64,000 nt of DNA from Vermamoeba vermiformis (Eukaryota): assembly GCA_045837725.1 (NCBI GenBank), contig JBEWZL010000006.1, positions 248,001 to 312,000 on the forward strand. Direction: 5' to 3'. This document shows, piece by piece, positions 14,707-53,569 of this stretch. The notes under the pieces were generated by a model. That model was not told where the DNA came from, did not search any database, and saw only the letters and a program-made list of their open reading frames with translations. The stretch's first letter is position 1. The number at the start of each line of letters is the position of its first letter. The position numbers and the translations under genes were made by a program.

Positions 14707-14796
14707 TTCGGCGAATAAAATGATGTAATTAATAAAAGTAAGGTTGCGGTTATAAGGCTGAGTTGAAAATTCCTTGTTTTTGAACGAATTGCGCGA

Positions 14797-22363: not shown

Positions 22364-24564
22364 TTAAATTTTTCCTTTCGTGGCTGTCTCGTGCTGAATG
22401 ACGCGGCTCATCAAGGAGAACATAATGCTCTTTGGCAATGCAGCCAATTGATTCTCGTACTTGGCAAATAACCTCTCGTAGTTAGTAACCCAATATTTCA
22501 TCGTGATTGATTTGTCGACCAGATCTCCTCTGTTCACAGCTGCCACGAGTCTATCCAAGGCCGTATCATCAGTAATACTACTGAATACTAAGTTGTGGCA
22601 ATGTTGCATCAAAAGCGTGTGATCACGTGACGGAAATGTAGGGGCGTTATTTGGATCAGTTAAAGTCAAGTACGAGCCAATGCTAAGAATTTCCAAGCAC
22701 TCCATGGGGTCAGTAATCGCTTTGAAATCACGTGTGTAGAAGTATTTTAGCAATTGTTCCCATGCACTGTTCGAAATATCTTTTTCAATTCTAACTTCCG
22801 CTGTGAAAAAAATAATCCGTCAATTTTTTGTTCAACGACCACCACGGAGAAACTAAATTTGTGCATTATAATGATTTATAAGAAGTTTTGAGTCAGAAGT
22901 ATACGTAAGAATAGATCACGTGCCGTGAATTTTTGGGAAGAATTCGAAAAGAAAAAAGAATCAAAATGTACGAATAAAATATAATTTGCATTAATTAATG
23001 TTCGAATATAGCAATGAGAATAGAGGGTGATTATTATAGTCGTTATATTAATATGACTTACTATGGTTGGGTAGTTCAAAGAACGGCGTTGCAAATGCCA
23101 AAATGACTTTGTGTGCCTTGTACTGGCGCGTATTGACAATCACAGTGAAATCTCCCGTTGTATCTCGCTCAGAATACAACTGACCAATCATATCGCGCCA
23201 TAATTCTGCACAATGTTTTCGTTCTTTCGGTTCAAATTCATAAACGCGTTCGATTAATAAATTCGCGGCTTGATTGAGGTCGACCACGGAATTATTCGGA
23301 ATTAATTTCGGAGAATTTTTGACCACGGCTTCAATCTCTGCTGCTCCGTCTCTTTTTGAACCAAAGTACTCCACCACTTTGTCGCCTAATAAGTCAAATT
23401 TGCAGGCGTGAGATACCAAATATAGATGCACCAAGTTATCATAGGTGGCACCTTTTTTCTCAAAACTGAAAAAATGAGCCATTGTCGCGAGTCTCTGAAG
23501 CACATCCGGGGTCAAAAAGTCATGGTTCCACGCAATCCAATCGATCACTTCCTGACGCAGCAATCCAGGGGCTATTAACTTCACGATTGGCTCGTAGATC
23601 TGCAAACCGGAATAATTGCGGAATAACTCGGGATTTTTCAACAATCCGATCATTCTATTGGTCCAAACTGTGTCTTCGGTCTCGAGCATTAAAATCTTTT
23701 TGCGTTCTTCTACGGGCAGTTCTAACACTAAGATAACCATACTTAGTTAATAAATTACTACAAGTAAACTACAAAGAGAAAAAATACGTTTTTTGAACGA
23801 GCGAATCTGGATCGTTACTAAATTTAAAAATAAATATTACTTACAATCGACCACCCACTGGAACAATTTAATCACTCCTTCTTGACCCTCTTTCGCGGAA
23901 ATTTCCATAAAGTGGCATTGGTGCTTGGCTGCTAATGCTTCGCCTTCTTCTGACTTGACTTGTCTTTTTTTGCCCAGATCTAGCAATAGTGTGTTAGAAT
24001 TAACTTAGGTAACATTGTATATAATATGTTACCTATCTTATTTCCGACGATGAATACTGCTGTGTTTGGACCCGCTTGTTGTTTGGATTGGTTGATCCAA
24101 TGATTTTCGATTGACTCGAAGGATGATCGCTCAGTGACGTCATAAACAAGAATTAGTACAATAGAGCCGCGCACATAGGAGGTTGTTATGCTTCTGAAAC
24201 GTTCTTGGCCGGCTAAAGGTACATCCGTTAATCAAATTTAAATTTTCAAATAAATCCTAAAATTATTACAAAAATATTACGATCACTTACCAGTATCCCA
24301 TATTTGCAATTTTCTAATATTATTTCTGTTTTGCGTACAGCGAAGCAGTTTTGTTTGAAATTCAACGCCGATCGTTGAGACGTAGGCCTCGGTAAAAGCA
24401 TTTACAGCAAATTGATTGGCAATATTACTCTTGCCTACACCTGCATCGCCCATAAGGCACACTAAAAATCGAATTATTTTACGTTTTCGATCGAGTCTTC
24501 AGCAGCTGAACTTACTTTTTAACGTTGTAGCGTTATTTCTTTCATCCTCGGTAAACTCCTCCAT
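22364..24564 (-). CDS. Rab-type small GTPase fused to BTB/POZ domain(s) (paralog B)
   Basis: [59 protein letters not shown]; then LYSERDTTGDFTVIVNTRQYKAHKVILAFATPFF and AWEQLLKYFY. Clearly homologous to paralog A. Confidence 0.88.
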
Positions 24565-35940: not shown

Positions 35941-38900
35941 ATGGTAAGTTAGAATAACCGAAACAGATTGCATGCAGATTTGAACTAATAAACAAAATCA
36001 GAGCTTGGACGATATATTTGATAAGCAAGAATTAATTGGCAAAGGCTCCTTCGGTGAAGTCTTCCGAGGGAGAGACAAGAAGACTGGGGAAGAAGTCGCC
36101 ATCAAAGTGGTAGATTTGGACGATGCAGAAGACGAAATTGAAAGCATTCAAGGCGAAATATCAATTTTATCACAATGCGCGTGTCCCTATATTGTCAAAT
36201 ACTACGGCTCGTATATTAAGGGCACCAAACTGTGGATTATTATGGAATTTATGGGTGGAGGTTCAGCGAAAGATTTTCTCGATGATACTGGCCCAATTGA
36301 TGAGGTATTTAATATGCCTATCATAGGCTCCTCATATACGAATTTTGAATTTTTACAATTTCGTTTTGCCTCGCGCCATCCGTTTATTAATTTTTTATCT
36401 TGCAGCCCTATATCGCTATCATCCTTCGCGAGACACTATTGGCGTTAGATTATTTGCATGGAGAAGGCAAAATTCATCGTGACGTGAAGGGTAAGCTAGA
36501 TCAATACTTTTTGTAACGTCGGTTTCAAAAAATTCAGATCTGAAAAAGCAAAATTATTTAAAAATATCTATTTCAGAATAGATTAGAATATTGCATTAGT
36601 TATCGGCAAAAGATTTTCTTTTCGTTACCCAATTCGGTAAATTTCCTTGTATTTTTTTGTCGATCGCAAATTACGAACTTGTGTACAATTTCCATCCTAT
36701 TTTTACGATATTTAGAGAATATTATTTAAAATAGATAATAAAAATCAAGCGAACGATATAGTGCTAATTAAATTTGTCTCGTAGCTGCCAACATTTTACT
36801 TTCTGCGCAAGGAGAGGTCAAGGTAGCCGATTTTGGAGTTGCAGCGCAAGTTAATGAAAAAATATGTAAGTATAGGGCCACTAAATAGCCACAAATCAAT
36901 GCTAGCAGAATTTTTTTATCAAATTTTCTTTCGCGGATGCTGACAAGAATTCTCGTAGGTCAACGCAGAACACTCGTTGGAACGCCAAACTGGATGGCAC
37001 CTGAAGTATTCAGAGGCGTAGGATATAATTCTAAGGTAAAGAGCGCATCAATATTGCTAGATCGCCGGATTGCGAATTGGCGCGATCCGAGTAAACAATT
37101 CTCAAAATGCTCATTTATTTATATTTCTGTTTCAGGCCGACATTTGGAGTTTAGGCATCACAGCTATTGAAATTGCTCGTGGTCTGCCGCCTTATTCAGA
37201 CTTGGATCCGATGCGCGCGTTGCACGTGATTGACAAAGGTCCAGCACCTAAACTAGAGGGCCAATTCAGTCCTGAATTCAAAGACTTCGTATCACACTGC
37301 TGTCAGAAGGTAAGATTAGCAATATGGTGCTTTACAATGCAAATGCAACCATTTTACTACCGGTACAACTTAGCACATCCAAAAATTGAAATATCATCAA
37401 AATATTCTCATAAATTTGTGCATATGAAATTATCGTTAATTTTGAGTATGGATATCAAAGAGAAGTGATTAGAAATTCTAATTAATTTTTTTGTTCAGAA
37501 TCCGTTGGATCGACCTTCAGCCAAACAACTTTTGACCCACCCATTCATTAAAACCGCTGGAACACTCGATAAAATGCTTGAATTAGTCGATATGAGAAAC
37601 AAGGCACGAGAGGAACAACGAAGACACTTGAGTAAGAGCGAATCCATCAACTCGATTTCTGAATCTACCGTGCAAGACAAGACTTCCGATAATGGTGACG
37701 ACTTCCCTGAATGGTAAGTCTATATTTAGTATTTACCGCAGTATCAATTGAATTGAATGCACGTGCTAGTCGATTCAGCGCAAATAGACAAAATCAGCTT
37801 GATACGGCACAAATCGATTCAAATTCCAGATTCTTCATTCAATTTACGTTTCGAATTGAATAGAAGATCTATATATCAAATTTAGATGACTAGTGCGGGT
37901 GGCAAAGCGGCAGGTACTAATTTAGATCGATTTTAGGGATCTGAGCGGTGAATCTGACTCTGAAGAAACAGACAATGGTCCTTCCTCTTTGGGCATGAGC
38001 TCAAATAGCGTATCTAGCGAGTAAGTACATATTTTGATTTATTTAAAGGATTACAATGCTATCTTTGAATCGTCGCTCGATCCAAAAACATTTTGTAACG
38101 GCTCTAATCTCGGTCCCTTGTAGTCATAGCGGTCCCTCAATCGTCATTGACAAGTCAGATGACGCAGTACCAGCACCTTCAGGCAACGGCACTACCCCTG
38201 CAGTCACGAGTCCTTCAGGTCTATTGCGTCGATCGAGCAGCAAAGGCACTTCGAGTTCGAGCTCAAAATCGAAAGATAAGCTGAAACGCGACATGTCCAC
38301 TGGTTCAGAAAAGAAGGACAAAGACAAGGATAAGGACAAGAGTACGTAGTTAAAATTAATTTTCCTTTATTCGAATCCAAATTTACGAATCCGTTTTTAT
38401 TGTACAGAGCGAAAAGAAAAATTGGAGAAGAGAAAGAGTCGATCAGGTTCACTCACTGGCGGAGATAAGGTCGATAAGAAAGCCAAGCGAAAGAGTGTTA
38501 AAGCCCCGCCTATTTCAGTACCGCCGACCAACACCGCGCAAACTATGAGCCCAACTCCGACGCGAACTGCTCCAACTGAAACCACGAAGAAGAAAGATAA
38601 GACTAGTAAGTATTAAGAATATCTTACAGCCATTTGTGAGGGTTAAAATTAATTTTTTGTTGTTAGATGTGAGCCCGATGCTGTTGCAAGTGATTTATCC
38701 TACAATGACTGAAATGCTCAAAAATACGAGCAGTGAAGCTACTATTGACGCTGTGTATCATTTGAAGAAGTACTTTGAAGGTAAGTAATAAGACTAAGCG
38801 CTTAATTTCATGACTGGATCTTTTGGTTGGATCGGATCTTGAGCTAACTTTTTCTTCGAACAGCTGCTGAGAATGATACCCCGGGCTTTGCGTTCAACAT

Positions 38901-39156
38901 GGTCTCGCTGATGATTAAGCAGTTGCAAGCCAACAACGACGGCAGTGCAAAACAACCCGTGAATTTTGTGCCGGGAGTGCCCAACCCTGCCACGGTGCCT
39001 AAACGCAGTGCCGCGACGAACTATTTGACCAAACAATGGCAGAAGAAGTTCGATACCGATGGTTCATTGAGCACTCTCGCTTCACCACGACCACCGAGTG
39101 CTACACCTGCGGTGTCGAGCAGCGGATCTCTTAAACGACAATCGTTGAAACTTTAA
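35941..39156 (+). CDS. STE20 GCK-III (MST3/STK24, SvkA-like) serine/threonine kinase
   Basis: GKGSFGEV, VAIK, KYYGSYIKGTKLWIIMEF, IHRDVK|AANILL, VKVADFG, GTPNWMAPE, ADIWSLGITAIE. C-terminal helical segment MLLQVIYPTMTEML...FEAAENDTPG resembles the GCK-III dimerisation domain. Confidence 0.92.
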
Positions 39157-39449
39157 ATACTAACAAGAATACTAATGTAAATAAACTGAACCGCTTATTT
39201 TATTTTTGATATCAAGCAAGACAAAATCATACTGATTCGTTTCCGTTTACTTCTCTTTGGTTGGCACAGGTTCAGTTTTATTTTGCCGTTAAATAATCTT
39301 GTAATACAACACAACACCTGGCACAAAAGATAGAAGAAAGCGTGTATGAGCGCTATGTTAAGTCTGCGCCGCCGCCGAAAAGCCAAAAAGGAAAGCAAAA
39401 AAAAGAAAATTAACGAAAAAGGGCAAGACACGCGAGCAGAAAAAAAAGA

Positions 39450-39700
39450 ATGCCTGAGGGGGACCTCGGAAGGTTAAGAAGGGGTTGTCGGCGCTCTAGG
39501 CGCCTGCGCCTTTGCCGTTGAAAGAAAAAACTCATCAAGCGGGCCCGGCTCTCGGCTAGGGGTTATGGTTGAGGACTCTCCCTGTTACTTCACTTAAATT
39601 GCTATTCTTGAGCGGCTGATGGTGAGTCCTCAATTTCAGAAGGAAATGTCAACAGCCCCTGCAGAAATTCCTTTTGTGCTGATTTCTACTGCATGTCCAA
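39450..39700. ncRNA. Candidate structured non-coding RNA / GC-rich element of unknown class
   Basis: Hairpin CTGAGG-GGGA-CCTCGG (39454-39469, GNRA loop on +); GGCGC/GCGCC (39490-39504); perfect 10 bp stem TTGAGGACTC (39569-39578) / GAGTCCTCAA (39624-39633); CAGAAGGAA/TTCCTTTTG (39637-39676). Lies between two convergent gene ends. Confidence 0.4.
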
Positions 39701-39853
39701 ACAAAGAACTCTTAAGTGCACTAGATACTCCAGAATATGTGCAATTTGGCCTGGTGGCAGCAGAGAATTGCAGAAAGTATTTGGAGCCATTTATTTCAAG
39801 CCAATCCCAATTAAATGGCATTTGAATTGTTTGTAGTGAGAATAAAGAACTTG

Positions 39854-42800
39854 TTAGATAGCTAGTTTGGCAGCTGCTGCAATAGATGCTAAGTGTGCCA
39901 AAATCCATTCACGAAACAACAGCACTGCTTTGTGTTGTGGTTGAGTGGCAAATAACAGTTGTATGGATTTGGGGTTGATCAAATCCTCTTCCAAAGCAAG
40001 ATTTTGGGCACTTGCAACGAAATCTTCAATGATTGTCTCTGCTTTTGGCAATTCTACTCCTGTTGACATAATAAAAAATTAAATTGGTTTTTTAAAATGA
40101 TTGTGTCTTACCATAGTGGTGAATGAAGGCACTAACAAAGAACACAACATTGAACTTTAACAATGTTGAGTCAGATCCATTGTACAACTCCACAAGCTTA
40201 TTGATCAAACTGGAGTCTTTCTGGAAGACATCTAAGTTGTAATATTAGATACAATAGCCCTTAAGCACTTACAACTTACTGAAGTGTATCAAGTGGGCTA
40301 AAAGAGCTACAAAAGATGGTGCCACGTCTTTTTGGGCAGTTGCCATGTCAACATCTTTAAGAAATGCTTTTGTTTATTCATACACTTCACAAAGTTTGTT
40401 GGAACTCAAGCTTGATGCTGCACAAAATGTCACCAACTTTGCATCTTTAAAACATGACTTACAGTTGAAGAGAATCAGTGCAATTAACAGCTCTACAGAT
40501 GAATCTTGAAGAGCCATCTGTTCTGCTAACACATCTCCATCAACTTCACTGTTGTTCTCAGAAGCTTCTTCTTCTTCATTGTTGTCATCCTCATCATTAT
40601 CTTCCTCATCCTTGTCTTCACTTTCATTTTCAGCAGTCTCTTCATTCAATTGAACAATTTGGTTTGCGCAAAGCGTTGTCAATTCTGCCAACATCTGTGG
40701 TGTCAGAGTTGGCTCCACTATTAAGAAAGTAAGTATGAATGATTAGCAAATGATGCAGAGCTTACAATCTAAACAGCTTATCCAGAACTTATTTTGCTCT
40801 ATTTTTGTTTCATATGAAAGGTTTTTGTCTGTTTGAAGTAGTTTGGCATCAATAACTTTGTCCACTACTTCATTTCTGGCTCCTAAATGCACGATTAATT
40901 ATTGCCAGAGAATGTTTTGGCTACCTTTTTCAAGAGCAATAATGTTTAATGTTCTCAGGATGCAATAAATTTGGTATTTTTTCCAGTCTGTGTCTCTAGC
41001 ATATTTTTCTATTTCAACATCAAATATTTCAATCAACTCATCTATCATTTTGTATTTCCAGAACATCTCTTGTCCACTCTCTAGAAAAAAAATATTAGAT
41101 CTATATTTACATACAAAGGTGAACTTACTAAGTTTAAGAATGCTTCTAATCAACTGGAGCAGTGGATTGACATTTTTTCCATTTTGCTCCCAAATATTAG
41201 CAATGGCTTGCATAAATTCTTCATTACTGGCAAAAAATTCCTTTGCATTATCTGCAAAAATGTTAGTCGGGGTTTATCAAATCAGTTGCACTGCACCTGA
41301 ATTCCATGCAGATTCCTCTAAGGCAACGCAAATAGGTCTAGCATATTTGACATTTAAATAAACTTCAATCAATTCAGCCAGCTCTTCATTGTTGTCGCCT
41401 AACAATGAAATTAAGAGCTGCCACTTTAAATCACAGGAAACTCACCAGGCCAATGCAAGTGTTTTGCAGCAGCAACCATTTTTAGTCGGCCATACTTGGT
41501 TTCAGGACACTTTTTCATCACATCAATGAAAATCTTTCTGAGTCCTGCATCTTGTTTGATAGTCTCATTCTCTGTCATTGACTGTCAGTTATTGCAATTC
41601 CCAAATTAATTAATATTACCTATAGGATTTGATAGCAAAATAGTCAAGCAATTGTTTGCTATTTGTTCATCTTCATCCCAGTTTTCAGATGTGTCAAACT
41701 TGTGTTTATGCTTAAGAATGCTGAGAACTTTATCCCAAATGGCAAGTTTGGTCCAGACAGCAGGATGGAAAGTTGCACGGTGGTCATAATAATTATCAAC
41801 CATTACTGTCATATTTTCAATTACTAAACCACAGTATGGTGATTCAACGTGCAGGTGATCAACCATTAAACTGAGTGAGCCCAGGGCAACATTGGTGGCA
41901 GGAAAATCAGAGAGGTTATTGTACAAATATTTGCCAAGCCCTGATAACGTTAGAAACGGAGGAGAGCGAGGGAAGGATAGAATGACCTACTGTGCATGTG
42001 CAAGTGCTCCATCAGCTTTGGGTGTTGCTTCAAATGTGGTGCAAGGAATGTCACAACTGTGTCCAACAACACTTCTGTGCTTCCTAGCTCTAGTCCATAG
42101 AAAATTAACTTGACAACTTCTTCAACTTGATTGATGTTGGTTGGAGGGTTAGTCAAGAGGTAGTAGAACGGGTTGAATTGTGGCTTGAACTCGTTTTCGT
42201 CGAACATATGCTTGAACTTCGGGTGTATTCCTTGGTATTGGTCCTCGCCAAACATCTCCCAGTCATCCATGTCAATGCCATAAACTTCAGGAGGGGTTCC
42301 TACTGAGGGCTGCTCGTCGTTATTGTTGTCGTCGTCATTGTCTGCGTCAGTGAATCCATCGGCTTCATCATTCAATCCATTGGCTTGGTCCGTGGATGCG
42401 TCAATTGTCTCAGGACTAATTATTCCGCTGGAACGTTCTGACAAATTGGCCATAAAATCTGAAATGTCCTCGTACTGTTGAGCGGAATCATTCTTAGCGG
42501 CTCCCTTCCTTGCTTGCATGGTTGCACGAGCGTTTGGTAGATCAATCTCTAACTTTCGTTCATTTGATGCTTCGTGGCTTGCTTCTTTTTGTTTGGCTAA
42601 TGCTGCCTCAATACGCTTCATAAATGAGGTTTCCTTCAAGTACCGATTGATGTATAACGCAGGCCAATCCCTAAAAAGAATAAAATTGTCAATTATTTTT
42701 TATTTGTGAATTAATTCGTTCAAATATGAAATAATAGCTTACATGTCATAGCAGGCGAGCTCGTAATCATTTAGGTGGTATTTTCTTGCGTATTTTTGGC

Positions 42801-42948
42801 GCCATTGGTCGTTTGTCAGATCTCGGAAGCTAAATAATTGTTTATTTGTCGCGCCAAACCTCCAGAGCGAAATTGGGTCTAAAAATGAATAAATGAGAGC
42901 GATTTCTTCATTTGAAAGCCGCTGAAACGGGTCTGATTGTTGTGACAT
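39854..42948 (-). CDS. F-box protein with long alpha-helical (ARM/HEAT-like) C-terminal region, multi-exon
   Basis: N-terminus PFQRLSNEEIALIYSFLDPISLWRFGATNKQL...QWRQKY (F-box); acidic linkers; helical exons joined by 45-50 nt GT-AG introns, in frame where checked. Confidence 0.75.
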
Positions 42949-43323
42949 GGTTGCGCGAACAAAACAAGATCAAAGCTCACAAAAAAATGGTTATTAAATT
43001 TAGTTAATGTTCCTTACTCGAATATAACAATCTTTTGCCTGGTATTCATCGAAATACCACCAGGAGCCAAACGAATCCATCCGGTCTGTTATCCTTGAAA
43101 ACTTTCAAATCTAGCTACGACATGATTATTTGTAGTTGTATTATATTCGCCAATTGTTGGGACTTAACGAGATTTAAAAACCGGCGCCGACTTTCGTAAT
43201 TTGATTTTTGTCACGTGCTGCCGTGTCCGGTAAATTTTGAATAACCACGTTTTCGCAGTGTATTTATTATTTGTAATATATATAACACTACCCAATACTG
43301 AACTTGTTGTATTTTCCAACACA

Positions 43324-45944
43324 ATGAGCTCCACGAAGACGCAAGACAAATCCGCTGCACAACCACAGAAAAACGGCCAAGGTCGACGTTACCTCAACGG
43401 CGCTATGAGTGGTATTGTAGAAGTAAGTATTGTATTCTGTACAGACGTTCTTTTTAAGGGTTTGCAATCTCGGTTAATCCGGTATTTTACGTTCTCCCTT
43501 TTTAAATCGAATTTAAAATTTAAAATTAAATTATGTATAAGTATTTGACCACATGGTTTGCTATATGCGCGTGTAGCGCCGTCAAATTGACCGGATCTAA
43601 CAATGTGCATCGTTAGATGTCGCTAACATTCCTTCAAAAAATTCCTAAAAATGACTCTATATACGGAATGTGCTATACGCATCTATATTAATCGAATTTT
43701 AGTGATATCAAATCATTTTATTGTGGTTCAAATGAAAACCCAATTGTCATTTTACGCGGTCTTAAACTCCTTAGGCAATCCTTTAGAGCTCGATTTCAGG
43801 TGTCTAAAGGAAGCTACTTGGTCATATTTAATAGTCTTGTATCGAGTTCGGATATTGGCGCGCGATTATTTGTGAATCGTCGTTTTGACGAATTGAAAGG
43901 TGATTACGCGCCAGATCTTATCGATGCGTCGCTTCCTAAAATCTCTAAATTTATATGACCGCTTTATATACTCATATTAAATATTATCGGAGTGAAATCA
44001 AGAGGAATATGACGCGTTTAATTATTAACGTCAGCTTTATTAATTTTCAAGAACCGATCTCGTAACTTTCATTGAATTAAAATGACTAGGCAAATCTTTA
44101 ATATCACTCTATTAATATGGAACTAACTCAGATTTCGTTAGGTCACTTTGACGCACTGGATCGACGTCTTGAAGACCAGGTGGCAAGCTGAGGCCAAGAT
44201 GGGCCAAGCTAGCGCTAGCACCAAGTCGCGCATTGCTGCTATTTACAAAAATGAAGGATTTAAAGGATTTTACAAGTAAGTTAAATTTCAAGCAATTGTA
44301 CCTGACTTCGCGGTACCTCGAAGATCTAAATTTTTTTCTAAAAATCTGGATTAACGAGTTTACACGGACTATATTTACTATTAATACGAGACATATTAAT
44401 ACTATACGTTAATAATATTAATTTTAATAAGTACGGCAGTAGCTCCGAAAATTTACCACCTCGTCCTAGTGAATTCAAGTTAGACCAGAAAATTATTGCG
44501 ATAAATGCTTATTATAATATTAGATCGTTTTATTGATTATTATACTGATAAAAGTTCATGCAAAATTTAATTTTGGTCCAATCACGAATACTTTTCGGAC
44601 TGATCTCCGAAGCGCTAAATTAACCGTACTTTTTTAATCACTAGGGGCTACGTCTCTCGTGTCATTGGTATTGGACCAATGAGAGCAGTCTATTGGGGCA
44701 CTATGGACCACATGACTAACCTTCTCTCGGGCTACCAAAATCTTTCACAGACTCAACGACTGATGCTCGCAGGTCTCGGCGCTGGTGCCGTCCAATCACT
44801 CGTTGACGTGCCCATTGAAGTCGTTAAAACTCAAGTACGTTACACCGTAATAATACGTGCATAAGCGGAGCTGCCGCCGATAATTGCTCGTTGAAGATTA
44901 TACGCTCCGTTTTTACGAAGCTAATAGATCCTATTTAAATTATAATATATGATCCTAATTAACTGGTATTATTTGCAGTTGATTACTGGTGGAAGCAACA
45001 AACAAGAAGTCATTAAAGTAAGTTTTTTCAATTGCGCACGATGTTTTTTCGCTTTATTTGTTCGTTTTTGCAACGATATTAACGTATCCTATTATTATTA
45101 TAGCAAGCACTTCAATTCAGAGGCTTCAAATCGACTGCTTTGAGAAACATGGGCTTTGCTTGCGTCATGAACTTTGGTTTGAACTACAAGTACGTAGATC
45201 TCGATTTATATCGCGATAACGCACTTGGTTTCACGTGTCATTGAAGCGCAGTTATCAATTATAGCGTTAAGAGTGATTAGTAATTAGTCCCATATTTTTT
45301 GTTTTTATGATTAGAATTTACCGATGAAAAGCGATTCTTGATACAGATCTACGAATAGATGCTAATAACTCGCATAGGCGAACTGACCAAACGAGTTACA
45401 TGGAGACTTACTTGCGCAGTATGGCCTCGGGCTTCGTTGCTGCGTTCACTACTCAACCGTTAGGTACGGATTTGATAGATCAAGTCTTCGATTGCTCTTC
45501 TGAGCTGCATTACATACGCATCGAAATATTACAGTACGGAAATGTTGAAAACAGGTTGTACTGTGCCGCAACGATGCAATATTTCTTTTATTTTTTTGGT
45601 TCTTGGATCGCGTGTCGCGTACTTTATTAATTTGTTGTTACTTTCGTAGACTATGTTAAGACCAAGCATCAACAACACGGTGGTGGTCCTCAAGTTGGCA
45701 TCATTAAGATGTTGGTTGATATCGGAAAGAAGAATCCTACTATGTTGTGGAGTGGAGGTAAGATCCGATCTCGATCTGAATCAAAAATTTGAAATTTTGA
45801 TCCTAATCAATTATATTACTAGGTGTATGGCGTATTCTCTTGTCTATGTCTACTATGAGTGTCGGTGCTACTGTCTTTATCTTCTTGAACTCCTACCAAA
45901 AGCAGAAGACTCCTTTGCCCGTCCTCGAAGAGCCTATCGAATAA
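43324..45944 (+). CDS. Mitochondrial carrier (SLC25) family protein, eight exons
   Basis: Three signature repeats THWIDVLKTRWQ, VPIEVVKTQL and QPLDYVKTKHQ; EGFKGFYKG. Contact-point pattern (PMRA, LRN, R) is reminiscent of keto-acid/oxodicarboxylate carriers. Confidence 0.9.
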
Positions 45945-46266
45945 GCTACTGTTCATAATAAGAAAAACAATTCAACAAATGTAATCTTTAATATCAATAT
46001 AAAGACCTATTTATGCAACACGAGCGACAAGATGCCGATCCAGTTTCACCCGTCCACGTTTCTGTTCTATTTTGGGACAATGTCGTTAGAGAGAGTAGTT
46101 ATTAATTAAAGAGTATTCTTTCAGTCATTCAATTTCGAAGGAAACATTGAGCCACGTGGTGAGATCGCGTGGCGGTTTTGTTCGCGCTTTTTTTTATGAA
46201 TCGATTTATCTTTGTTAATTTGGCCACAATTTACACTTCAGGTGCTGTAATATATACCTTGCTATT

Positions 46267-49200
46267 ATGGAGCTGAACACCGAAGTGGTATGTTTCTATT
46301 TTGATGGATTTGTCGGGTAGATTTACTCGTGATGTTATATTTAATTCATTTAATGCCATATTATGCTCTCGGCAAATTTTATTTAAGCGAAAATATGACT
46401 TTTACACCGAGATCTGCAGCAGGAATGAAAATTGCTGCCTCGGCCAATTTATTAATTCAATATCGTTATTTTTGCGAATTAATTTATTTTTTAATTGTAC
46501 AATTGCAATTTATTATATTCACGAAATAATTTTAATTTTGCGACACGTAGATCGAATACAAAGTGACCGTTGTGCCCATCCAAGGCGAGAAAGGCAAGAA
46601 GGGTTTTAAGCCTATTCCATTGAAGAACCCCTTAGGCTTAACACTCGATAACGAGGGCAATCTTTATTTTTGCGACTACAATAACCGAATAATTCGAAAA
46701 TTGATCACATCCACCGGCGAGCTGCAATTGCCCAATGGAATCAAGAACTCAAAAATAAGCAACCCTACTGGCGTTATCTTAGACAAAGACGGCAATATAT
46801 TTTTCAGCGATTGGTCAGATCAAACTGTCAAACGCTTGGACGCTAAAGGTAACCTAAAAAATACCTAACAATAACTTCAAAAATATTTAAATAATTATTT
46901 TCTTGCAAAAATTGCGTCATAATATTGCAATAGAGCATTTAGCAAATGTATTCGTTTGCCGCAGCTTCTTGTATCACCACTCATTTTCTTTCCTTTTTTA
47001 GCCCAGACATTGATTGCAGCTGGTATTCCGGGCAGTTACGGCAAACAAGACGGCACTGACTCGCGATTGAACGGCCCCTTTGGCATTACAATGGACAAGG
47101 ACGGCTTCCTTTACGTGTGCGACACGGGCAACCACAGCATTCGAAAAGTGGACCGCAAGGGCTACGTGACAACAATTGCAGGCACATCTGGCAAGCCTGG
47201 CTTCCGTGATGGCAAGGGCGCTAAGGCTCGATTCAACTTGCCCAAGGGCATCACGTGTGACAAGGACGGAAATATTTTTGTGTGCGACAGCGGCAACCAC
47301 ACCGTGCGCAAGATCGATCCCATGGGCGTTGTCACGACTGTCGCTGGTGTCGCTGGCAAGAACGGCGCTATTGACGGCCCTGCGCTTGAAGCCAAGTTCA
47401 ACGAGCTCCGAGGCATTGCTGCTGACGACCAAGGCAACCTATTCGTGTGCGACAGCGGCAATCACACCATTAGACGAATTACTCCCGCCGGCAAGGTGTC
47501 AACTGTCGCTGGTGTCAATGGCAGAAAAGGAAACAACGAAGGTCGTGGCAACACTGCGAGATTGTCAGCTCCGTACGGCATCACGATCGACAAGCAGACA
47601 GGTGTAATGTACGTGACTGAATGGGACAGCCACTTGATCAAGAAATTGACGCCCGAGAACACAATGATTTACAAGGCCATCAGAGAAAATGACTGGGAAC
47701 TCGTCGAGTCGTTATTGCACCATTACTTGCGCCAGCTGCCGTTGGAAACTGAGCTCAACAACCAGTTTTCACTGAACGCCATTTTGTTCGCTGGAAAAGT
47801 ATTCAAGAACAGATTGGTTGAATTGAGAGAGAAGCTCACCACGACCATTCCGTTGTTCGGCGAGACATTGCAACAAATCGACCAACAAATGATTGATACG
47901 CAAAACCTTCGCGATCAAAAGCGAAAGATGATCGAACAGTTGCAGCGCGAAGTTGCCGAGTTGGACACTGTGGAGAAGAACCTCATCGAGCACACGCGCA
48001 CTGTGCTGATCCAACAGGCCAACAGCGAGGACGACTTGGAATGTGTCAAGAAGAAGATGGTAGAGACCGATCAGATGGTCGATCGCACTGAGACCAAGAT
48101 GAAGTTCTGGTCCGACATTTTGCGCGACAAGTCACTTGACACGTGGACCCCGCAAGAAGTGTCATTTTTATTGCAAGAATTTGGCTTGCAGTTCTACGCG
48201 CCCATCTTTGAGAACAAGAAGGTCACTGGTGCTCAGTTGCTTCAATTGACCACGAGCCGATTAAGAAATGAAATGGGCATGAGTTACAACGAGGCTAAGC
48301 GTGTGCAGCGAGCAGTGCAGTTAGTGCTCACAAAAGCAGATCTGTATCAACCGTTGAAGGGCATTCAGACTTGGCAGAACGGAGAGGTCGTCGACTGGCT
48401 CGTTGCTAACAAGTTGAACGGTTGCGTGGAGCCTTTCAGAACTAACGAGGTAAGTCAGATCTGACCAACTTCCAAAAATGGAAATTTCAAAATATGAAGG
48501 TTGTCCTTTATTATTTGTCGATATTAATCATATTTTTAGGTTAATGGTGAGACATTGTCATATTTGTCGACTATTGACTTGAACGAAATGGGCATTGAAA
48601 CAATTGAACAAGCCCGACTTTTGGATGCGATCCAACAAACCTCTCGCGAGTTGGAAGCCAAGCATATTCAAGACCAAGAAGAAAAGAAGAAGAAGAAGAC
48701 TTTGATGGAGAAATTGAGCGTTGACAACATCACGCACAACATGGACAAAATGGCATCCAAGTTGAAGATCGACAAGATCGCGGAGAAAACTGACAAAGTT
48801 GCTGCAGACATGAAAGAAAAAATCAACGAGGTCATTCAACCTGCCAAAATTGGCAAGTCTATCACTGGCTTCTTCAACGAGGTCTCGCAGCAGGCCGAGA
48901 AATTGACCCAAGGCGCGTTGAACTCATTGCACACCGATCACGCCAAACTAGCCCCTTCAAATATGCCTAATGTTGCTGGTCCTAGCGAATTAGACCACTC
49001 AGGTCTGCAACGACTTGGCGACATTAGACCGGATCAGCCCTCAAAAACAACGACACCTGTCACGCAACCAATGACACCTGTCAATCCCGAGCCGCAAGTC
49101 CAAGTCCAGGCTCAACACTCTGAAGTCGTACAACCACCTCAACCTGAGCCTATTGTGCAACAACAACCTCAAGGTGTGTCACATCCAGTCGTCAATAACG

Positions 49201-49886
49201 AGCCCTTTCGTCAACCTGAAGTAGCACCGCAAGAGGTGCAGCCAGTCACAGGGAGTTCTAGCTCAACTGCAGTAGTGTCACACGTTCAATCTCAACAAGT
49301 CTCACAACCGCAAGTTGTGGTCCCTCAAGTCACACCTTCAGTTCCATCACCTGTCATTCAACACGTCGAGCCAGTTGTTCCCACTCCTTCTGTTCCTCAA
49401 TCTCAGCTTGTAGAACAACCTATTGTCACCCCTACTCCGCAATCTGTCGTCGTTCCTGAACCACAACCAGCAGTGACGCCTCAAGTACCTATCGAGCAAC
49501 CTCAACATGCCCAAGTCCAACAGCCGATTGTTGAGCCTACAGTCGTGCAACCACCTCAACCAGAACAGCCTCAAGTCCTGGTACATCCAGTCGTCACCCC
49601 TGAACCCGTGCATCACCCGCAAACAGTGCCTGAGTTAGTGACAGCTGTCAACACTGAACCTGAACCAGTGCAACACCCAACAGCCCAAACAACTGACGTT
49701 GAAGAGAAGCAACACGATGACAATGAACACGTTGGATCTGACAACGAACATGTTGGTGACGACGAGCCACCGCGTCAATCATTCTTTTCAGTAACTATCG
49801 GGGATGATGACGACGATGATCAGTCCTATCAACACGACTCAACGAAGAGCACTCCCGATAGCATGTTTAATGTAACAATTATTTAA
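46267..49886 (+). CDS. NHL-repeat beta-propeller + coiled coil + two SAM domains + P/Q/V-rich tail
   Basis: Repeats such as FNLPKGITCDKDGNIFVCDSGNHTVRKID; SAM-like WTPQEVSFLLQEFGLQFYAPIFENKKVTGAQLL and WQNGEVVDWLVANKLNGCVEPFRTNE|VNGETL; low-complexity C-terminus. Confidence 0.88.
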
Positions 49887-49935
49887 ATTATTCTCTGTTT
49901 ATAAATGCAATTTAAACCTTTTCCAACGGATCCGA

Positions 49936-52900
49936 TTACAAAGTTCCGTCGTTCGAAAAAACGACGTTGTCAACGTAATAATTGTTAGTTTGACCACTGT
50001 TTTGACCGATTTGAATAGCCAACAGGGTAGCTGGCGTTGAGATCGAGAACTGACTGACCGGAATGTTGAACGTGTTCCACTTGCCAGGCGTGACTGGGAT
50101 AACTACGGCGGGAAGATGGCTGTTCCAAGTGCCGCTGTAGAGCTGAACTTGTGCCAAATACACGTCCTTCTCGACGTACACTTCGAGGTGCAAGTACTGC
50201 CATGAGGGGCTGATGCTGATGCCAGTGATGTCGATGTGGAACCAAGTGTCAGTGATGGAGCTGAATTTCATCGAGTATGACTCGGAGTTGACAATAGTGG
50301 TCTCGGAGGTCCAAGTGGTCGGCGAAACTAAATTGAAAATTGTTAGCGAAGGGCTGGATAGCGGTGCAGAAATGTTAACGTACTTGTGCTGACAGTGCAG
50401 CCTGAGCACAAAGTGTCACGATAAATGTATTGATAGTTCGTCGTGGCAAAAGCGAAATCATCAATGTAAACAGCGTTTGCTTGCGCGGGTTGTTGCACAG
50501 CGAGCACAATCCAAGTGATCTTCGTGCTCAATTGGAACTGTGACATTTGAATCGTGAAGGTCTTCCACTGACCAGCAGCAAGAGATCCTAACCAGACTGC
50601 GGGCAGTGAACTCGACCATTGACCTTTGTACATTTGCAATTGAAGGCCACTGACAGCTTGCTCGGCGTAGACTGTGATTCTGACAGTTTGGTATTTGGAC
50701 ACGTCGAGGTCACAAGCGAAAAAGTTGATGGTGTACCACGTGTCAGTAAAGCTCGTAATTTTCAGCGAGGTAGATTCTTTGAACTTGAGAGCGGAGGTGA
50801 TTTGGTAAGGTCCTACAAGGATTATTAATTAAAAGCTTTTGAATGACACGTGTCAACTTACTGTCAACCGACCAGCCCACAGCAAAGTTGTCTCTGAAGA
50901 TGTAGTACTCAGCAGCTGTTTGTTGATAGCGATAAGAAGACACAGGGTACAACGGCTGGTTGAAGATAGGAGTGGTGGTTGGGCACGTGATCGTAACACC
51001 GGGTGTCGAGGTGTTGGTTACGAGGACTGACACGCCCAATGGGTAACGGCCATTCGCGTCTCTGCCAGTGATTGCGAGTGCCAATGGAGGTCTGTAGCCG
51101 TTGCGGTCAAGCACGGTCAAATAAGCTTTGTACAAGCCAACAGGGACTGATGCACTTGCCAACTGGAACGAGTTGGTGTAAGTGTACGAGGCCAAGTCAG
51201 GGAAGACGTTAGTGATCTCCAGGACATTCGGCGATCTGTACGTGGTCGAGCTAGTCACGAAGCTACCAGTGCAAGCAGAGACATCGTAAACAGAGTTGCG
51301 CAAACTGCCGCCACATCGTTGAGTAGCGTCACCAACGCATGCAGTCACGCACTGAGTTTCAGCTTGTTTAGCGTACTTTCCGTAAGAATTTCCGCACGTG
51401 CAAGTGTTTCCCGACTGAAGACCTGCGTACTTGTAACCAGCGCTCTTGCAAGTTGATGCGCAAGAGTCAATGGTCATCGAGGCACTCGTTGTCAATGAAC
51501 CAGTCAGATCGCGGCTAGTGCTCACATCAGTCCAGCAGCCAACGTATTTAGCGCAAGTAGGACGAAGTTCGATGACTGTGTTCCAATCGTCGTAGATTCT
51601 GCTCGTGCCTGTGTTCGACATGTTCAAGCCTACGACCATGCAGTTGTCTTGGTCCACGTGTGAAGACAATTGGATCGAGTTGACTGCAGCAACAAATCCG
51701 ATGATCTTGCCGAGTTGTGCGAGATCAGCGAGCTGTTGTGAAGTGTAGCCACTGCTGGTGTAAGGAATATTTCCGTTGCCAATAGTCGAGAAGTGGTAGT
51801 CACGTGCTTCACGTTGAGCTTCAGCAAAGTTGTACGTGGTAGGATCGCCTGACGCGGTGAACTCAGCGAATGAAGGCGCAGTTCTGTAGCGGTACTGACC
51901 GAGTGGCCAGAATCGTGAGTTGTCCCAGTTCCAAATTTCTGAAAACACGTCGTTTCTGATACCAACTTTCTGTGACTTTTGAAGGGCGTAACAAATACCG
52001 TCATCATCATTCGTGTTGATCGTGAAGTATTTGCTGGGGAACGCGTTGACAACGATGTCAATGTAGGCTTGTTTCGTGGCCAAAGAAGCACCAGGGTCGT
52101 TAGTGCAGACAGACGAAGGGTGCCACTCGCCATAGTCACCAATCATGCCAATATCGATCCATCCCAAGCGAGAGTCGTTGCCGTATCTGTTCGAGAGGGC
52201 GTTCCAAAGTGCTTGGGCTCGTTGTCTCATGAAAGTATCTTCCCAGTTAGGTACATAAGTGTCAAGTGCACCGTTGCCGTCAGCATCGCAGTTGAGTGCG
52301 CCACCTTGGCTTTGGAAGATGTAGTTGGGCAGACCAACTCCTTTAGCCCAAGTGTCGAGAATCATAATTCTGAAACCAAACTTGCCGCCGTTAGTAGCGG
52401 CCTTGGCGAGTTCGTTGTCGATGGCAGTCCAGCTGTAGACGCCTTGTGAAGTCTCAATTTCCTTCCAAGCGTATCTTGTGTATGAATCCTTGTAAGGACC
52501 AACGGACTGGCTGATGACAGTGTAGTCCGAGCCGAGCCAGTTGTAGAAGCCGCGGTAAGGGTTCGCTTGAATGGTGGAGAGGGCGGTGGGACGGACAGTC
52601 ACTTCAGCGTCCATCACTGAGCGCTTGACATCGTCGTCTTCAGCCTCAACCTGCACACTAACAACTAGACGGCAAGTGTAAGTATTGGCTGCGTTAAGTA
52701 TATGAACGTGTTGCCTTACCTGAGCAGTCTTGGCCTGAGAAACCAGTGTTGCACGTGCATTGACCTGTCAACTGATCACAGATGCCACCAGCACTGCAGT
52801 CGTTCGGGCAGTAAACTTAGCTATTGCCTGCCAAGCTGACCGACACTTGACCAAAAGCGAATTGATACGGCACGTAAACGTGAACATCAGCGCGGATGCA

Positions 52901-53569
52901 GCTTTCGTCTTTGGTGTTGACGCGCACAGCCAACGAACACAACAGCAACACGGCAAAGACCCATCGCAAGGAGGCCTTGTTGATGAAGAGCATTGAAGGG
53001 AGCAAAGTAGCAAGTGTCAAGTTGAGCAAAAGTGATGTAAATGATTGACGTGACGTTGCTGCGGAAATCTGTTTCAGTGAACGATGAGCTACTGAAGTTG
53101 CACAAAATATGTGAACTACAAGTAACTTACCTCTTGAGTATTAGCATCAATAAGAAGAGACAATCCGTCAACGTGTGCAAGGGATAATGACACGGGATCT
53201 GATTGATCTGCTGAAGAGCTGATCTGCACCACAAAGGTTACGTTGGCGGTGGATCCTGCTCGGAAGTAAACGTTTCCCTGTTAAAAATAATTAGATGCTT
53301 GTAAATGGGGTAAAACAAACACATAAATTGCAAATATCTTTGATCCGATTCTGGCAATCGCCATAATTTGGTGTAAACAATAAGGAAACAATCTATGAAG
53401 TATATAATGCGTTTTAAGTACTTACCGGGATCCGAGACAATACGTTCAAATTAGTGCCAGAAACCACTCGAGCCTCCAAGATTTTCTGCGTCACCACATT
53501 GCACGATGACACGGCGTAGACTACGCAACAAATACTCGCTAATAGCGCGAGAACCAATGAATGTCTCAT
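49936..53569 (-). CDS. Secreted modular carbohydrate-active protein: signal peptide, EGF-like module, GH-A-like (GH42/DUF4832-type) domain, WSC domain, two CBM-like repeats; contains an in-frame TAA (possible pseudogene or assembly error)
   Basis: MRHSLVLALLASICCVVYA; CPNDCSAGGICDQLTGQCTCNTGFSGQDCS; NPYRGFYNW, RYAWKEIETSQGVYSW, DIGMIGDYGEWH; WSC YVGCWTD...CASTCKSAGYKYAGLQSGNTCTCG; two similar beta-sandwich repeats ending VYIDDFAF and YYVDNVVF. TAA at 52819-52817. Confidence 0.8.

What the first reader, a model, noticed from the sequence alone, without database searches (positions are those of the whole stretch)
39620..42130. Sharp, one-sided CpG-depleted domain starting at the structured element
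Seen: by eye only about 15 CG dinucleotides in about 2.5 kb, with many 60-nt lines having none, whereas flanking DNA typically has several per line. TG and CA look abundant. Depletion covers exons and introns of the 3' two-thirds of an apparently intact F-box gene, begins right after the GC-rich element and fades near 42.1 kb; the 5' part of the same gene and DNA left of the element are normal. Known: long-term 5mC causes CpG loss by deamination. Inference: a locally targeted methylation domain, for example from antisense read-through of the element, a centromere-like or heterochromatic site, or a segment acquired from a CpG-poor donor.
Basis: partly seen in the sequence, partly recalled or inferred. 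Interest (0 to 1): 0.72.

Follow-up and report, generated by a model that had tools for sequence, protein, structure and literature searches.

The report
CpG-poor block inside one expressed gene
A sharply bounded 2.5-kb stretch covering the rear three quarters of one expressed gene has lost about 85% of its CG dinucleotides, which is the mark that long-term cytosine methylation leaves, in a protist-like genome that otherwise shows no such loss.

Summary
There are 15 CpG in window 39614-42168 (2555 bp), o/e 0.17, against 1.20 +/- 0.13 in other 2.5-kb windows (minimum 0.85). Both edges resolve to under 100 nt, and it is the only such block in the 64 kb. The missing CpGs (about 92-120) are matched by about 120 extra TpG+CpA. 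K-mers without CG/TG/CA look like the rest of the window.

The block is single-copy DNA, and an independent DNA run bridges the right edge. It runs from inside exon 2, about 1 kb or more downstream of the transcript start, to just past the 3' end of a minus-strand 12-exon gene. That gene has a weak F-box and an orphan helical domain. Spliced transcript contigs from two other studies cover it. Arg content and CGN/NCG codons have collapsed, but no TGA stops arose, so decay was slow and under selection.

Best reading: a locus-specific, long-lived 5mC domain with gene-body geometry. Methylation itself was not measured, and no genome is held.

The "structured element" at the left edge folds no better than shuffles. 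In another DNA run, 1879 other bases stand in its place. Centromere, contaminant, repeat and antisense read-through get no support.

The parts
39614..42168 (.). CpG-depleted block: 15 CpG in 2555 bp, o/e 0.17, with TpG/CpA excess
   Evidence: Edges from the change-point fit are 39549-39637 and 42096-42190.
39854..42948 (-). Coding region of a 12-exon gene with a weak F-box at the N-terminus, an acidic linker and an orphan helical C-terminal domain. Exons: 42948-42743, 42670-41991, 41940-41620, 41571-41446, 41398-41297, 41251-41129, 41080-40925, 40882-40766, 40717-40463, 40417-40280, 40231-40112, 40059-39854.
   Evidence: Nine of the 11 CDS introns are seen as GT..AG joints on the minus strand in spliced contigs of X5 (three also in X10). 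Introns 41296-41252 and 40765-40718 are predicted only. The model was checked. Pfam F-box-like E 0.045 and F-box E 0.056, both below the cut-off. The Atlas feature search of exon 3 gives ARM/HEAT/TPR-like clusters at 0.90-0.93, a lead only.
42169..43153 (-). 5' part of the same transcription unit with normal CpG (exonic o/e 1.08): exon 1, the first 502 nt of exon 2, and a 5' exon upstream of 43018
   Evidence: The X5 joint 42878/43018 has 136 letters on its shorter side, so the transcript reaches at least about 43153.
42879..43017 (-). 139-nt intron used in X5 transcripts. It removes the ATG at 42948 and the first 23 codons (half of the F-box). No in-frame upstream ATG was found.
   Evidence: joint, depth 11.2, one contig.
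40374..40376 (-). In-frame TAA at codon 710 of 849. It is removed only if a 36-nt GT..AG intron (40390-40355), which has no RNA support, is spliced out (the product is then 837 aa).
39364..39595 (.). It varies between samples.
   Evidence: the X1 contig (2366 nt, depth 290) matches 39206-39363 and 39596-39902 with 1879 other letters between. X1 depth in bin 39407-39607 is 17.3; fold z +0.96; no Rfam family.
35984..39156 (+). Convergent neighbour, a protein kinase gene with normal CpG up to its 3' end. Its last introns are 103, 66, 61 and 83 nt.
   Evidence: Pfam Pkinase E 5e-21; spliced joints in X5, X10 and X19; CpG profile.

Best explanation
The block is the mutational footprint of cytosine methylation at CpG that has sat on the body of this one gene for a long evolutionary time. 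Methylated C deaminates to T, so CpG turned into TpG or CpA in exons, introns and 3' UTR alike. The block starts about 1 kb or more downstream of the transcript start and stops just past the 3' end. The promoter side and the neighbouring convergent gene are untouched. The gene is still transcribed, spliced and kept open by selection. That is the geometry of transcription-linked ('gene-body') methylation, in which the 5' end is protected by promoter-proximal chromatin and methylation fills the rest of the unit. Here it is confined to one gene in a region, and probably a genome, that is otherwise unmethylated. Shown: the composition, the mass balance, the edges, the single-copy state, the linkage to both flanks, the transcript structure, and the erosion of Arg and CpG codons without nonsense mutations. 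Inferred: that 5mC was the cause, that it acted in place, that chromatin of the transcription unit sets the edges, and that it may still be there. The confidence given is for this whole statement; that 5mC-driven decay of some kind made the block I hold at about 0.75.
For: 1. CpG o/e is 0.17 against 1.20 +/- 0.13, and it is the only such block in 64 kb.
2. Mass balance: TG is 212 seen against 166 expected at the background ratio, and CA is 230 against 156. That is 120 extra, against 92-120 missing CpG. GC is 0.373 now and would be 0.409-0.421 if restored; the rest of the window is 0.403.
3. K-mers without CG/TG/CA are ordinary: 42 of 140 (k=3) and 33 of 140 (k=4) other windows deviate more.
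4. Exons, introns and 3' UTR are all depleted, so codon or amino-acid choice is not the cause.
5. Edges are sharp. They coincide with the transcription unit: the right edge is at least about 985 nt from the most upstream RNA-supported base, and the left edge is 240 nt past the stop codon.
6. The gene is expressed. Ten minus-strand GT..AG joints are listed in X5 contigs and three of them also in X10, from two studies. X5 covers the bins across the right edge.
7. Decay was slow and under selection. Arg is 1.6% (10 of 614 codons) against 4.6% in 17 other ORFs. CGN makes up 3 of 10 Arg codons against 177 of 276. NCG codons are 1 of 115 against 343 of 1481. The C|G codon-boundary o/e is 0.16 against 1.09. 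There are no TGA stops, although CGA is the commonest CGN Arg codon in the neighbours.
8. It is single copy and truly linked. X1 depth is 290-660 inside the block and 277-807 in the flanks apart from the spacer bin (17.3). X1 record 4 (41690-42276) bridges the right edge. X1 record 2 links the block to the kinase side.
9. The same exon 2 across the edge exists in a relative (P0032, 91% identity).
10. CpGs next to or inside the block differ between lineages. X5 lacks the CpGs at 42192/3 and 42201/2. P0032's read-through of intron 41990-41941 implies that 2 of its 3 CpGs are absent there (inferred from residues).
11. Precedent: sparse, local CpG methylation in an amoebozoan (1.3% of CpGs, 2.4% of genes) and 5mC rising towards gene ends in Cyanophora (PMC12344493, section 6 read). 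In species with gene-body 5mC, 6mA holds the 5' end and 5mC starts where it fades (PMC12695648, passages read).
Against: No methylation was measured, and no DNA methyltransferase could be looked for because no genome is held. Only 1 of the roughly 18 gene regions in the window is affected. True gene-body methylation systems mark many genes, typically conserved housekeeping ones, whereas this gene is an orphan. The exhaustive HMMER search of exon 3 gave only 2 spurious hits, and exon 2 had no longer homologue. The published amoebozoan methylome lacks gene-body methylation and marks silent genes including their promoters (PMC12344493). The left edge coincides with a structural variant, and the right edge lies about 10 codons from a protein-domain boundary. 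Intron length also changes there: 42-52 nt inside against 61-139 nt in the six RNA-supported introns outside. The edges could therefore be historical breakpoints rather than chromatin boundaries. PMC12695648 notes that CpG depletion and 5mC level do not track each other well across protists genome-wide. The polarity of the substitutions could not be tested, because too few differences were listed.
Confidence: 0.55

Rival explanations
1. A small repressive (heterochromatin-type) methylated island nucleated in the variable spacer at the left edge, for example by a mobile element in the 1879-nt allele. It would spread into the gene's 3' part and be halted by active chromatin near its 5' end.
For: The left edge falls on the breakpoint of the spacer variant. 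Depletion is deepest near that side: 6 CpG in 39614-41267 against 9 in 41268-41967. Known amoebozoan 5mC is repressive and tied to transposons and foreign genes (PMC12344493, section 6).
Against: The gene is transcribed and spliced. The kinase gene, about 200-450 nt on the other side of the spacer, is untouched. The spacer allele in the window is CpG-rich, not depleted. The block is single copy, with no repeat in the window. The 1879 letters could not be read, so a mobile element there is a guess.
Confidence: 0.17
2. Chimeric history: the 3' part comes from a different source. Candidates are an old in-frame fusion with a neighbouring gene that was fully methylated, gene conversion or introgression from a CpG-poor copy, or transfer from a CpG-poor donor. 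The depletion would be inherited, the right edge would be a recombination breakpoint, and nothing need be methylated today.
For: CpG content, intron length (42-52 nt for all 10 introns inside; 139 and 72 nt in the 5' part) and the start of the helical protein domain all change within a short distance of 42169. The C-terminal domain has no detectable homologues. A Vermamoeba genome paper reports much gene trafficking in such amoebae (PMC7125106, passages read), but the organism here is not identified.
Against: K-mers without CG/TG/CA match the host. Introns use the same branch-point and splice motifs as the host. Depth equals that of the flanks. Predicted host introns of 48-58 nt are common. 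No viral or phage relatives were found. The junction is shared by a relative at 91% identity, so any event is old. Even then the depletion still needs methylation in the source.
Confidence: 0.13
3. A centromere-like or other chromosome-structural site, one per chromosome.
For: Only that it is unique within 64 kb.
Against: It is 2.5 kb of unique, spliced, expressed coding sequence with an open frame under selection. There are no repeats.
Confidence: 0.02
4. An artefact (mis-assembly or contaminant DNA), or a burst of repeat-induced (RIP/MIP-like) point mutation.
For: None beyond the abrupt edges.
Against: An X1 contig (41690-42276) spans the right edge, and another links block and kinase side. 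Depth is even and single-copy. RNA contigs of two other studies carry it, and a relative shares the exon across the edge. A burst would have made TGA stops from CGA codons, and none is present. An old paralogue pair in the window (34% identity) has normal CpG.
Confidence: 0.02

Closest known systems
Gene-body CpG methylation and its CpG-depletion footprint. Low-CpG o/e gene classes of honey bee, Ciona and sea anemone are recalled from memory; 5mC in gene bodies of plants, animals, chlorophytes and the ichthyosporean Amoebidium is from PMC12695648, passages read.
   Same: It is confined to the transcribed body, spares the promoter and the first roughly 1 kb, and ends at the 3' end. The gene is expressed. 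Exons and introns are both affected. CpG is lost to TpG/CpA.
   Different: Here 1 of about 18 gene regions in 64 kb is affected and the rest of the window has CpG o/e above 1. The gene is a lineage-restricted orphan, not a conserved housekeeping gene. Methylation itself is unmeasured.
Sparse repressive hypermethylated regions of Acanthamoeba castellanii: 966 windows, 3.4% of the genome, 2.4% of genes (PMC12344493, section 6 read).
   Same: A mostly unmethylated, gene-dense protist genome with a few small, sharply local CpG-methylated regions. The window's gene content (SH2, an LRR gene adjacent to an SH2-like ORF, F-box-LRR, BTB) looks amoebozoan; that reading is my inference from Pfam and from recall.
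   Different: Those regions cover promoters as well, mark silent genes, young retrotransposons and viral insertions, and carry H3K9me3. Here the promoter side is spared, the gene is spliced and expressed, the DNA is single copy, and no viral relative was found.
[quoted passage not shown]
   Same: A 3'-biased position within an expressed gene.
   Different: That is a different lineage with a heavily methylated genome (32% of CpGs). No CpG-decay footprint is described in the part I read.
Repeat-induced point mutation / methylation induced premeiotically in fungi (recalled).
   Same: Local C-to-T hypermutation with sharp edges.
   Different: These need duplicated DNA and produce many nonsense mutations. 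Here the DNA is single copy and there are no TGA stops. The classical Neurospora context is CpA, not CpG (recalled).

Membership tests
5mC-driven CpG-decay domain | CpG observed/expected far below the local background | tested here: met
   0.17 against 1.20 +/- 0.13; z -7.7; Poisson P 1e-22 or lower.
5mC-driven CpG-decay domain | Reciprocal excess of TpG and CpA that accounts for the missing CpG, with the rest of the composition unchanged | tested here: met
   120 extra TpG+CpA against 92-120 missing CpG. K-mers without CG/TG/CA are typical.
5mC-driven CpG-decay domain | 5-methylcytosine present on the DNA, and a CpG methyltransferase encoded in the genome | not testable with these tools
   No genome is held. 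No methylation-aware reads are available. No paper on cytosine methylation in the guessed genus was found: one search gave 2 papers holding both terms, 1 listed, and it is unrelated.
Gene-body methylation (plant/animal type) | Restricted to the transcribed region, sparing the promoter and 5' end and stopping at the 3' end | tested here: met
   The block starts at least about 985 nt from the most upstream transcript base and ends 240 nt past the stop codon.
Gene-body methylation (plant/animal type) | The marked gene is transcribed | tested here: met
   Spliced contigs in X5 and X10. The expression level is unknown. Raw RNA run X19 laid no read on the gene, but it is only about 90% alike on the neighbouring gene.
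Gene-body methylation (plant/animal type) | Affects many genes, mostly conserved and broadly expressed ones | tested here: not met
   All 17 other long ORFs have CpG o/e 0.79-1.34. There is a single block in the window. The gene has no homologues beyond close relatives.
Repressive methylated region (Acanthamoeba type) | Silent gene, promoter included, repeat or viral origin | tested here: not met
   The gene is expressed and spliced, the 5' part has normal CpG and depth is single-copy. No relative was found in viral contigs and only weak PHROG hits from the acidic stretch (E 0.004-0.007).
RIP/MIP-like repeat-induced mutation | Duplicated target and a mutational burst leaving many stops | tested here: not met
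   There is no second copy in the window and depth equals the flanks. There are 0 TGA stops and 1 TAA in 849 codons.
Foreign (transferred) segment | Composition, splice signals or copy depth unlike the host | tested here: not met
   Intron length (42-52 nt) is at the short end of the host range, which is a weak hint only.
F-box protein | F-box domain recognised by the family profile | tested here: inconclusive
   PF12937 E 0.045 (14 bits; cut-off 24.3). PF00646 E 0.056 (13.8 bits; cut-off 20.5). One transcript form splices out its first half.
Structured RNA element at 39330-39640 | Folding energy beyond shuffles, or a match to a known RNA family | tested here: not met
   z +0.96; 80 of 100 shuffles fold at least as well. 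No Rfam hit at gathering score. Best E 0.34 at the permissive threshold.

The most novel reading that the evidence does not exclude
In a free-living amoeba-like protist whose genome is otherwise unmethylated, a single expressed orphan gene carries a transcription-unit-shaped 5mC domain. The domain has been inherited with edges stable to under 100 bp for long enough to erase about 85% of its CpGs and two thirds of its arginines. On this reading it is a natural, evolutionarily stable 'epiallele-like' gene-body methylation domain outside plants and animals, showing that gene-body-type targeting can exist gene by gene in a lineage thought to have only repressive 5mC.
Probability: 0.2. Interest if true: 0.75.

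Novelty: new member of a known kind. Interest (0 to 1): 0.45.

Why it matters
If 5mC is confirmed, this block is a clean natural example of how precisely a methylation domain can be kept in place over evolutionary time. It also shows what that does to a protein, with arginine loss driven by mutation pressure while the frame is kept open. It would place gene-body-shaped methylation in a protist group where published methylomes show only repressive methylation, which bears on whether gene-body methylation is ancestral to eukaryotes. Practically, a CpG o/e scan of this genome would be a cheap way to map its methylated regions before any methylome exists. If the block proves to be a fossil or a fusion scar, it is an ordinary footprint of limited interest.

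Tried and rejected
- Whole genome for a genome-wide CpG distribution: none is held.
- Rfam at gathering score and tRNA scan of the window: nothing.
- Repeat of the block elsewhere in the window by blastn and tblastx: nothing significant. Direct, inverted and tandem repeats in 38500-43500: only chance-size matches and a 15-nt acidic-codon array.
- Homologues:
  - Exon 2 against longer proteins: none.
  - Exon 3 ORF against 1.84 billion representatives: 2 hits, both spurious (a repeat protein and a zinc-finger protein).
  - Pfam on 8 exon ORFs: only the sub-threshold F-box and low-complexity hits.
  - PHROGs: two weak hits from the acidic stretch.
  - Viral contigs: none.
  - Atlas: ARM/HEAT-like leads only.
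- Metagenome contigs, by exon 3 protein and by a 30-nt DNA pattern: nothing.
- Sequencing runs: no listed holder is on record as RNA. X5 and X10 proved to be transcript contigs only through their spliced joints. X19 raw RNA laid no reads on the gene, which is not used as evidence.
- Polarity of CpG changes from strain differences: 15 listed differences in the gene, of which 2 destroy and 1 creates a CpG. That is too few, and 247 further differences were not shown.
- Strand asymmetry of decay (sense TG 1.58 against CA 1.39): other ORFs show the same slight bias (1.20 against 1.15), so it was dropped.
- Earlier findings of this scan: three look-ups, nothing returned.
- Taxon: the Atlas search on the V-ATPase fragment was uninformative. 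My guess of a Vermamoeba-like amoebozoan is unverified and carries no weight in the verdict. It rests on the window's GC of 40% against a published 41.7% (PMC7125106), an SH2 domain and an LRR gene adjacent to an SH2-like ORF, holders labelled as several other organisms, and water and air samples.
- Supplements of the papers were not opened. DNMT tables there might list the relevant lineage.
Full report
**1. The observation**

Window 39620-42130 holds 15 CG dinucleotides, CpG o/e 0.173, with TG o/e 1.41 and CA o/e 1.57. The whole window has CpG o/e 1.16 at 40.3% GC.

The block is bounded by the CpGs at 39613 and 42169, so it spans 2555 bp. The seven longest CpG-free gaps of the 64-kb window (202-376 nt) all lie in it; the next longest is 159 nt. 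Other 2.5-kb windows have o/e 1.20 +/- 0.13, with a minimum of 0.85.

Against all other windows of equal size the z-scores are: CG -7.7, CA +5.0, TG +2.2, AG and CT +2.5, GA -2.8, and nothing else beyond |2|. From base composition 89 CpGs are expected (107 at the local ratio), against 15 seen; Poisson P is 4e-22 or lower. Among 500-bp windows only one merged block falls below o/e 0.55.

A two-change-point likelihood fit over 36000-46000 gives P(G after C) of 0.032 inside and 0.261 outside, with a log-likelihood gain of 78.8. The edges fall at 39549-39637 and 42096-42190. Both edges are sharp; the right one does not fade.

**2. What lies there**

A minus-strand gene runs from an ATG at 42948 to a stop at 39854 in 12 exons. 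Spliced contigs from runs X5 and X10 (two studies, organism labels different from the best DNA holder) show GT..AG joints on the minus strand. These give introns:
- 42742-42671, 41990-41941, 41619-41572, 41445-41399, 41128-41081, 40924-40883, 40462-40418 and 40111-40060;
- roughly 40279-40232 (the X5 joint has three extra letters there);
- a further 5' intron at 43017-42879.

Two more introns (41296-41252 and 40765-40718) are predicted only.

The resulting frame has 849 codons with a single in-frame TAA at 40376-40374. It is fully open (837 aa) only if a 36-nt GT..AG intron without RNA support is removed.

The N-terminus matches F-box profiles below threshold (E 0.045 and 0.056). The X5 transcript form that uses the 139-nt 5' intron removes the ATG and half of that motif. 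An acidic linker follows, then about 600 residues with no Pfam family. A language-model feature search of exon 3 points weakly to ARM/HEAT/TPR-like solenoids.

The C-terminal part is an orphan. An exhaustive HMMER scan of 1.84 billion representatives with the exon 3 ORF gave two spurious hits. Exon 2 found no longer protein. Viral contigs and PHROGs gave no relative: no tblastn-confirmed match in viral contigs, and only two weak PHROG hits (E 0.004-0.007) from the acidic stretch. The only relative found is a 216-aa NCBI protein from a 1.4-kb contig, 91% identical to exon 2's reading frame and running across the CpG edge.

The right edge of the block (42169) lies inside exon 2: the exon's o/e is 0.98 before it and 0.0 after it. 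The edge is at least about 985 nt from the most upstream transcript base seen (about 43153). The left edge lies 240 nt past the stop codon, at the spacer that separates this gene from a convergent protein kinase gene with normal CpG. Within the block, exons (o/e 0.15), introns (0.39; 3 of their 5 CpGs sit in one intron) and the 3' trailer (0 CpG in 240 nt) are all depleted.

**3. Not an artefact, not a repeat**

Logan contigs of DNA run X1 differ from the window at several fixed positions, so X1 is not simply the source sample. They cover 38000-44000 at word depth 277-807 everywhere except one bin. One contig (41690-42276) bridges the right edge. Another (2366 nt) joins the kinase side (39206-39363) to the block (39596-39902). 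Depth inside the block equals that of the flanks, so the block is single copy. No second copy exists in the window, and there are no notable repeats.

**4. The 'structured element'**

The exception in X1 is bin 39407-39607, at depth 17.3. There the X1 contig carries 1879 other letters in place of window 39364-39595.

The CpG-rich element is therefore a spacer allele that is rare or absent in that sample. It folds no better than dinucleotide shuffles (z +0.96) and matches no RNA family. It is not CpG-depleted: 19 CpGs lie between 39341 and 39613. So it lies outside the process that shaped the block, or it is young. I could not read the 1879 letters.

**5. Why 5mC decay, in place and slow**

*Mass balance.* TG is 212 against 166 expected at the background ratio, and CA is 230 against 156. 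That is 120 extra, against 92-120 missing CpGs. Putting them back raises GC from 0.373 to 0.41-0.42, against 0.403 for the rest of the window.

*Host-like composition.* Once k-mers containing CG, TG or CA are set aside, the block's 3-mer and 4-mer spectra are ordinary: 42 of 140 and 33 of 140 other windows deviate more. Introns inside and outside share a CTAAY-like motif upstream of the acceptor. This speaks for long residence in this genome rather than recent import.

*Effect on the protein.*
- Arg is 1.6% (10 of 614 codons) against 4.6% in 17 other ORFs and 4.7% in the gene's own 5' part.
- CGN codons make up 3 of 10 Arg against 177 of 276.
- NCG codons are 1 of 115 against 343 of 1481.
- C|G across codon boundaries has o/e 0.16 against 1.09.

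CGA is the commonest CGN Arg codon in the neighbours (only AGA is more frequent), yet the block has no TGA stop. A sudden RIP-like burst would have left several, so the decay was gradual with selection keeping the frame.

*Instability of remaining CpGs.* CpGs at or near the block differ between lineages. X5 lacks the two at 42192/3 and 42201/2. The relative P0032 appears to lack two of the three in intron 41990-41941, inferred from its read-through residues. With only 15 listed differences this is anecdotal, and polarity could not be tested.

**6. Mechanism**

The geometry is that of transcription-linked gene-body methylation: the promoter and first kilobase are spared, everything up to the transcript's end is affected, and the gene is expressed. 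In species with gene-body 5mC, 6mA occupies the 5' end of genes and 5mC rises where it fades (PMC12695648, passages read). In Cyanophora, methylation accumulates towards the ends of expressed genes (PMC12344493, section 6).

Against simple membership: only one of about 18 gene regions in the window is affected, with all 17 other long ORFs at o/e 0.79-1.34. The gene is an orphan rather than a conserved housekeeping gene. The one amoebozoan methylome in print shows sparse repressive 5mC on silent genes, promoters included, and no gene-body methylation (PMC12344493, section 6).

I therefore hold 'long-term 5mC on this block' at about 0.75. I favour the transcription-unit-shaped mechanism but do not consider it established.

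**7. Rivals**

- *Repressive island.* An island seeded in the variable spacer would explain the left edge and the deeper depletion on that side. It does not explain an expressed gene, the spared kinase gene at the same distance, or a CpG-rich spacer allele.
- *Chimeric history.* This reading is kept alive by three features that change together near 42169: CpG content, intron length, and the start of the helical domain. All 10 introns inside are 42-52 nt, against 139 and 72 nt in the gene's 5' part and 103, 66, 61 and 83 nt in the kinase gene. However, predicted host introns of 48-58 nt are common, first introns are often longer, composition is host-like, and the junction is shared with a relative. 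Even then the depletion needs methylation in the source.
- *Centromere, contaminant, mis-assembly, repeat-induced mutation.* These are contradicted by the results in sections 3 and 5.

**8. Organism**

The window is gene-dense with short GT..AG introns. It encodes:
- an SH2 protein and an LRR gene next to an SH2-like ORF;
- F-box-LRR proteins and BTB paralogues;
- an NHL-SAM protein and a Pif1 helicase with zinc knuckles;
- a WSC-domain protein.

Relatives of the WSC gene exist in NCBI (68% identity) and JGI data (92%, on contigs up to 520 kb). I read this as an amoebozoan, possibly Vermamoeba-like: GC is 40% here against a published 41.7% (PMC7125106, passages read), and holders are labelled as several other organisms and as water and air samples. 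This is a guess that no call tested, and the verdict does not depend on it. One search for papers joining that genus with cytosine methylation found nothing relevant. A search for CpG-depleted domains in unmethylated protist genomes found none. Supplements were not seen.

**9. Verdict**

The finding is a real, statistically extreme, sharply bounded CpG-decay block on the body of one expressed orphan gene. The most likely cause is a long-lived local 5mC domain. This is a known kind of footprint, seen here in an unusual one-gene, gene-body-shaped form. Interest is moderate until a methylome or a genome-wide scan exists.

Noticed in passing
window 39364-39595: Spacer allele polymorphism. DNA run X1 has 1879 other letters here and only depth 17 for the window's version. 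The alignment is also ragged at 39326-39341 and 39613-39622, so the true breakpoints may be about 39325 and 39625.
   Followed up: partly
window 40374-40376 (minus strand): An in-frame TAA lies 140 codons before the end of the gene, directly followed by AATAAA-like sequence. The downstream frame stays open and is spliced in X5 transcripts. Possible explanations are a 36-nt mini-intron, a truncating allele in this strain, or a sequencing error.
   Followed up: partly
window 42879-43017 (minus strand): A 139-nt intron in X5 transcripts removes the predicted start codon and half of the F-box-like motif. No in-frame ATG lies upstream in the 5' exon.
   Followed up: partly
window 39854-42168 versus 38021-38861 and 42671-43017: All 10 introns in the CpG-poor block are 42-52 nt. 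The six RNA-supported introns next to it are 61-139 nt.
   Followed up: partly
window 18067-19218 (+) and 22364-23746 (-): Two BTB-domain genes in inverted orientation flank an F-box-LRR gene. They are 34% identical over 180 residues (E 3e-31), so they are old paralogues, and both have normal CpG.
   Followed up: partly
window 46900-53500: A GC-richer stretch (46-52%) has raised TG/CA and CpG o/e of 0.78-1.07. It holds an NHL-repeat/SAM gene with a long Pro/Gln/Val-rich tail and a WSC-domain gene with a DUF4832-like part. The depletion is much milder than in the block and was not analysed further.
   Followed up: no
window 38000-39200 in run X19: Raw RNA reads filed under the same species label as the best DNA holder are only about 88-95% alike on the kinase gene. 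They carry many fixed third-position-like differences, so that label seems to cover clearly diverged lineages.
   Followed up: no
window 41689, 42500, 42508, 38292-38734 in run X1: Variant letters occur at about one third to two thirds of the depth (for example 348 of 570 and 156 of 474). This suggests several haplotypes, polyploidy or a mixed culture in that sample.
   Followed up: no
window 14767-16585 (+): An SH2-domain ORF (Pfam E 3e-13) is followed by an LRR (RNI-type) ORF whose end looks SH2-like by eye. The LRR-plus-SH2 arrangement is recalled from dictyostelid proteins and was not tested.
   Followed up: no
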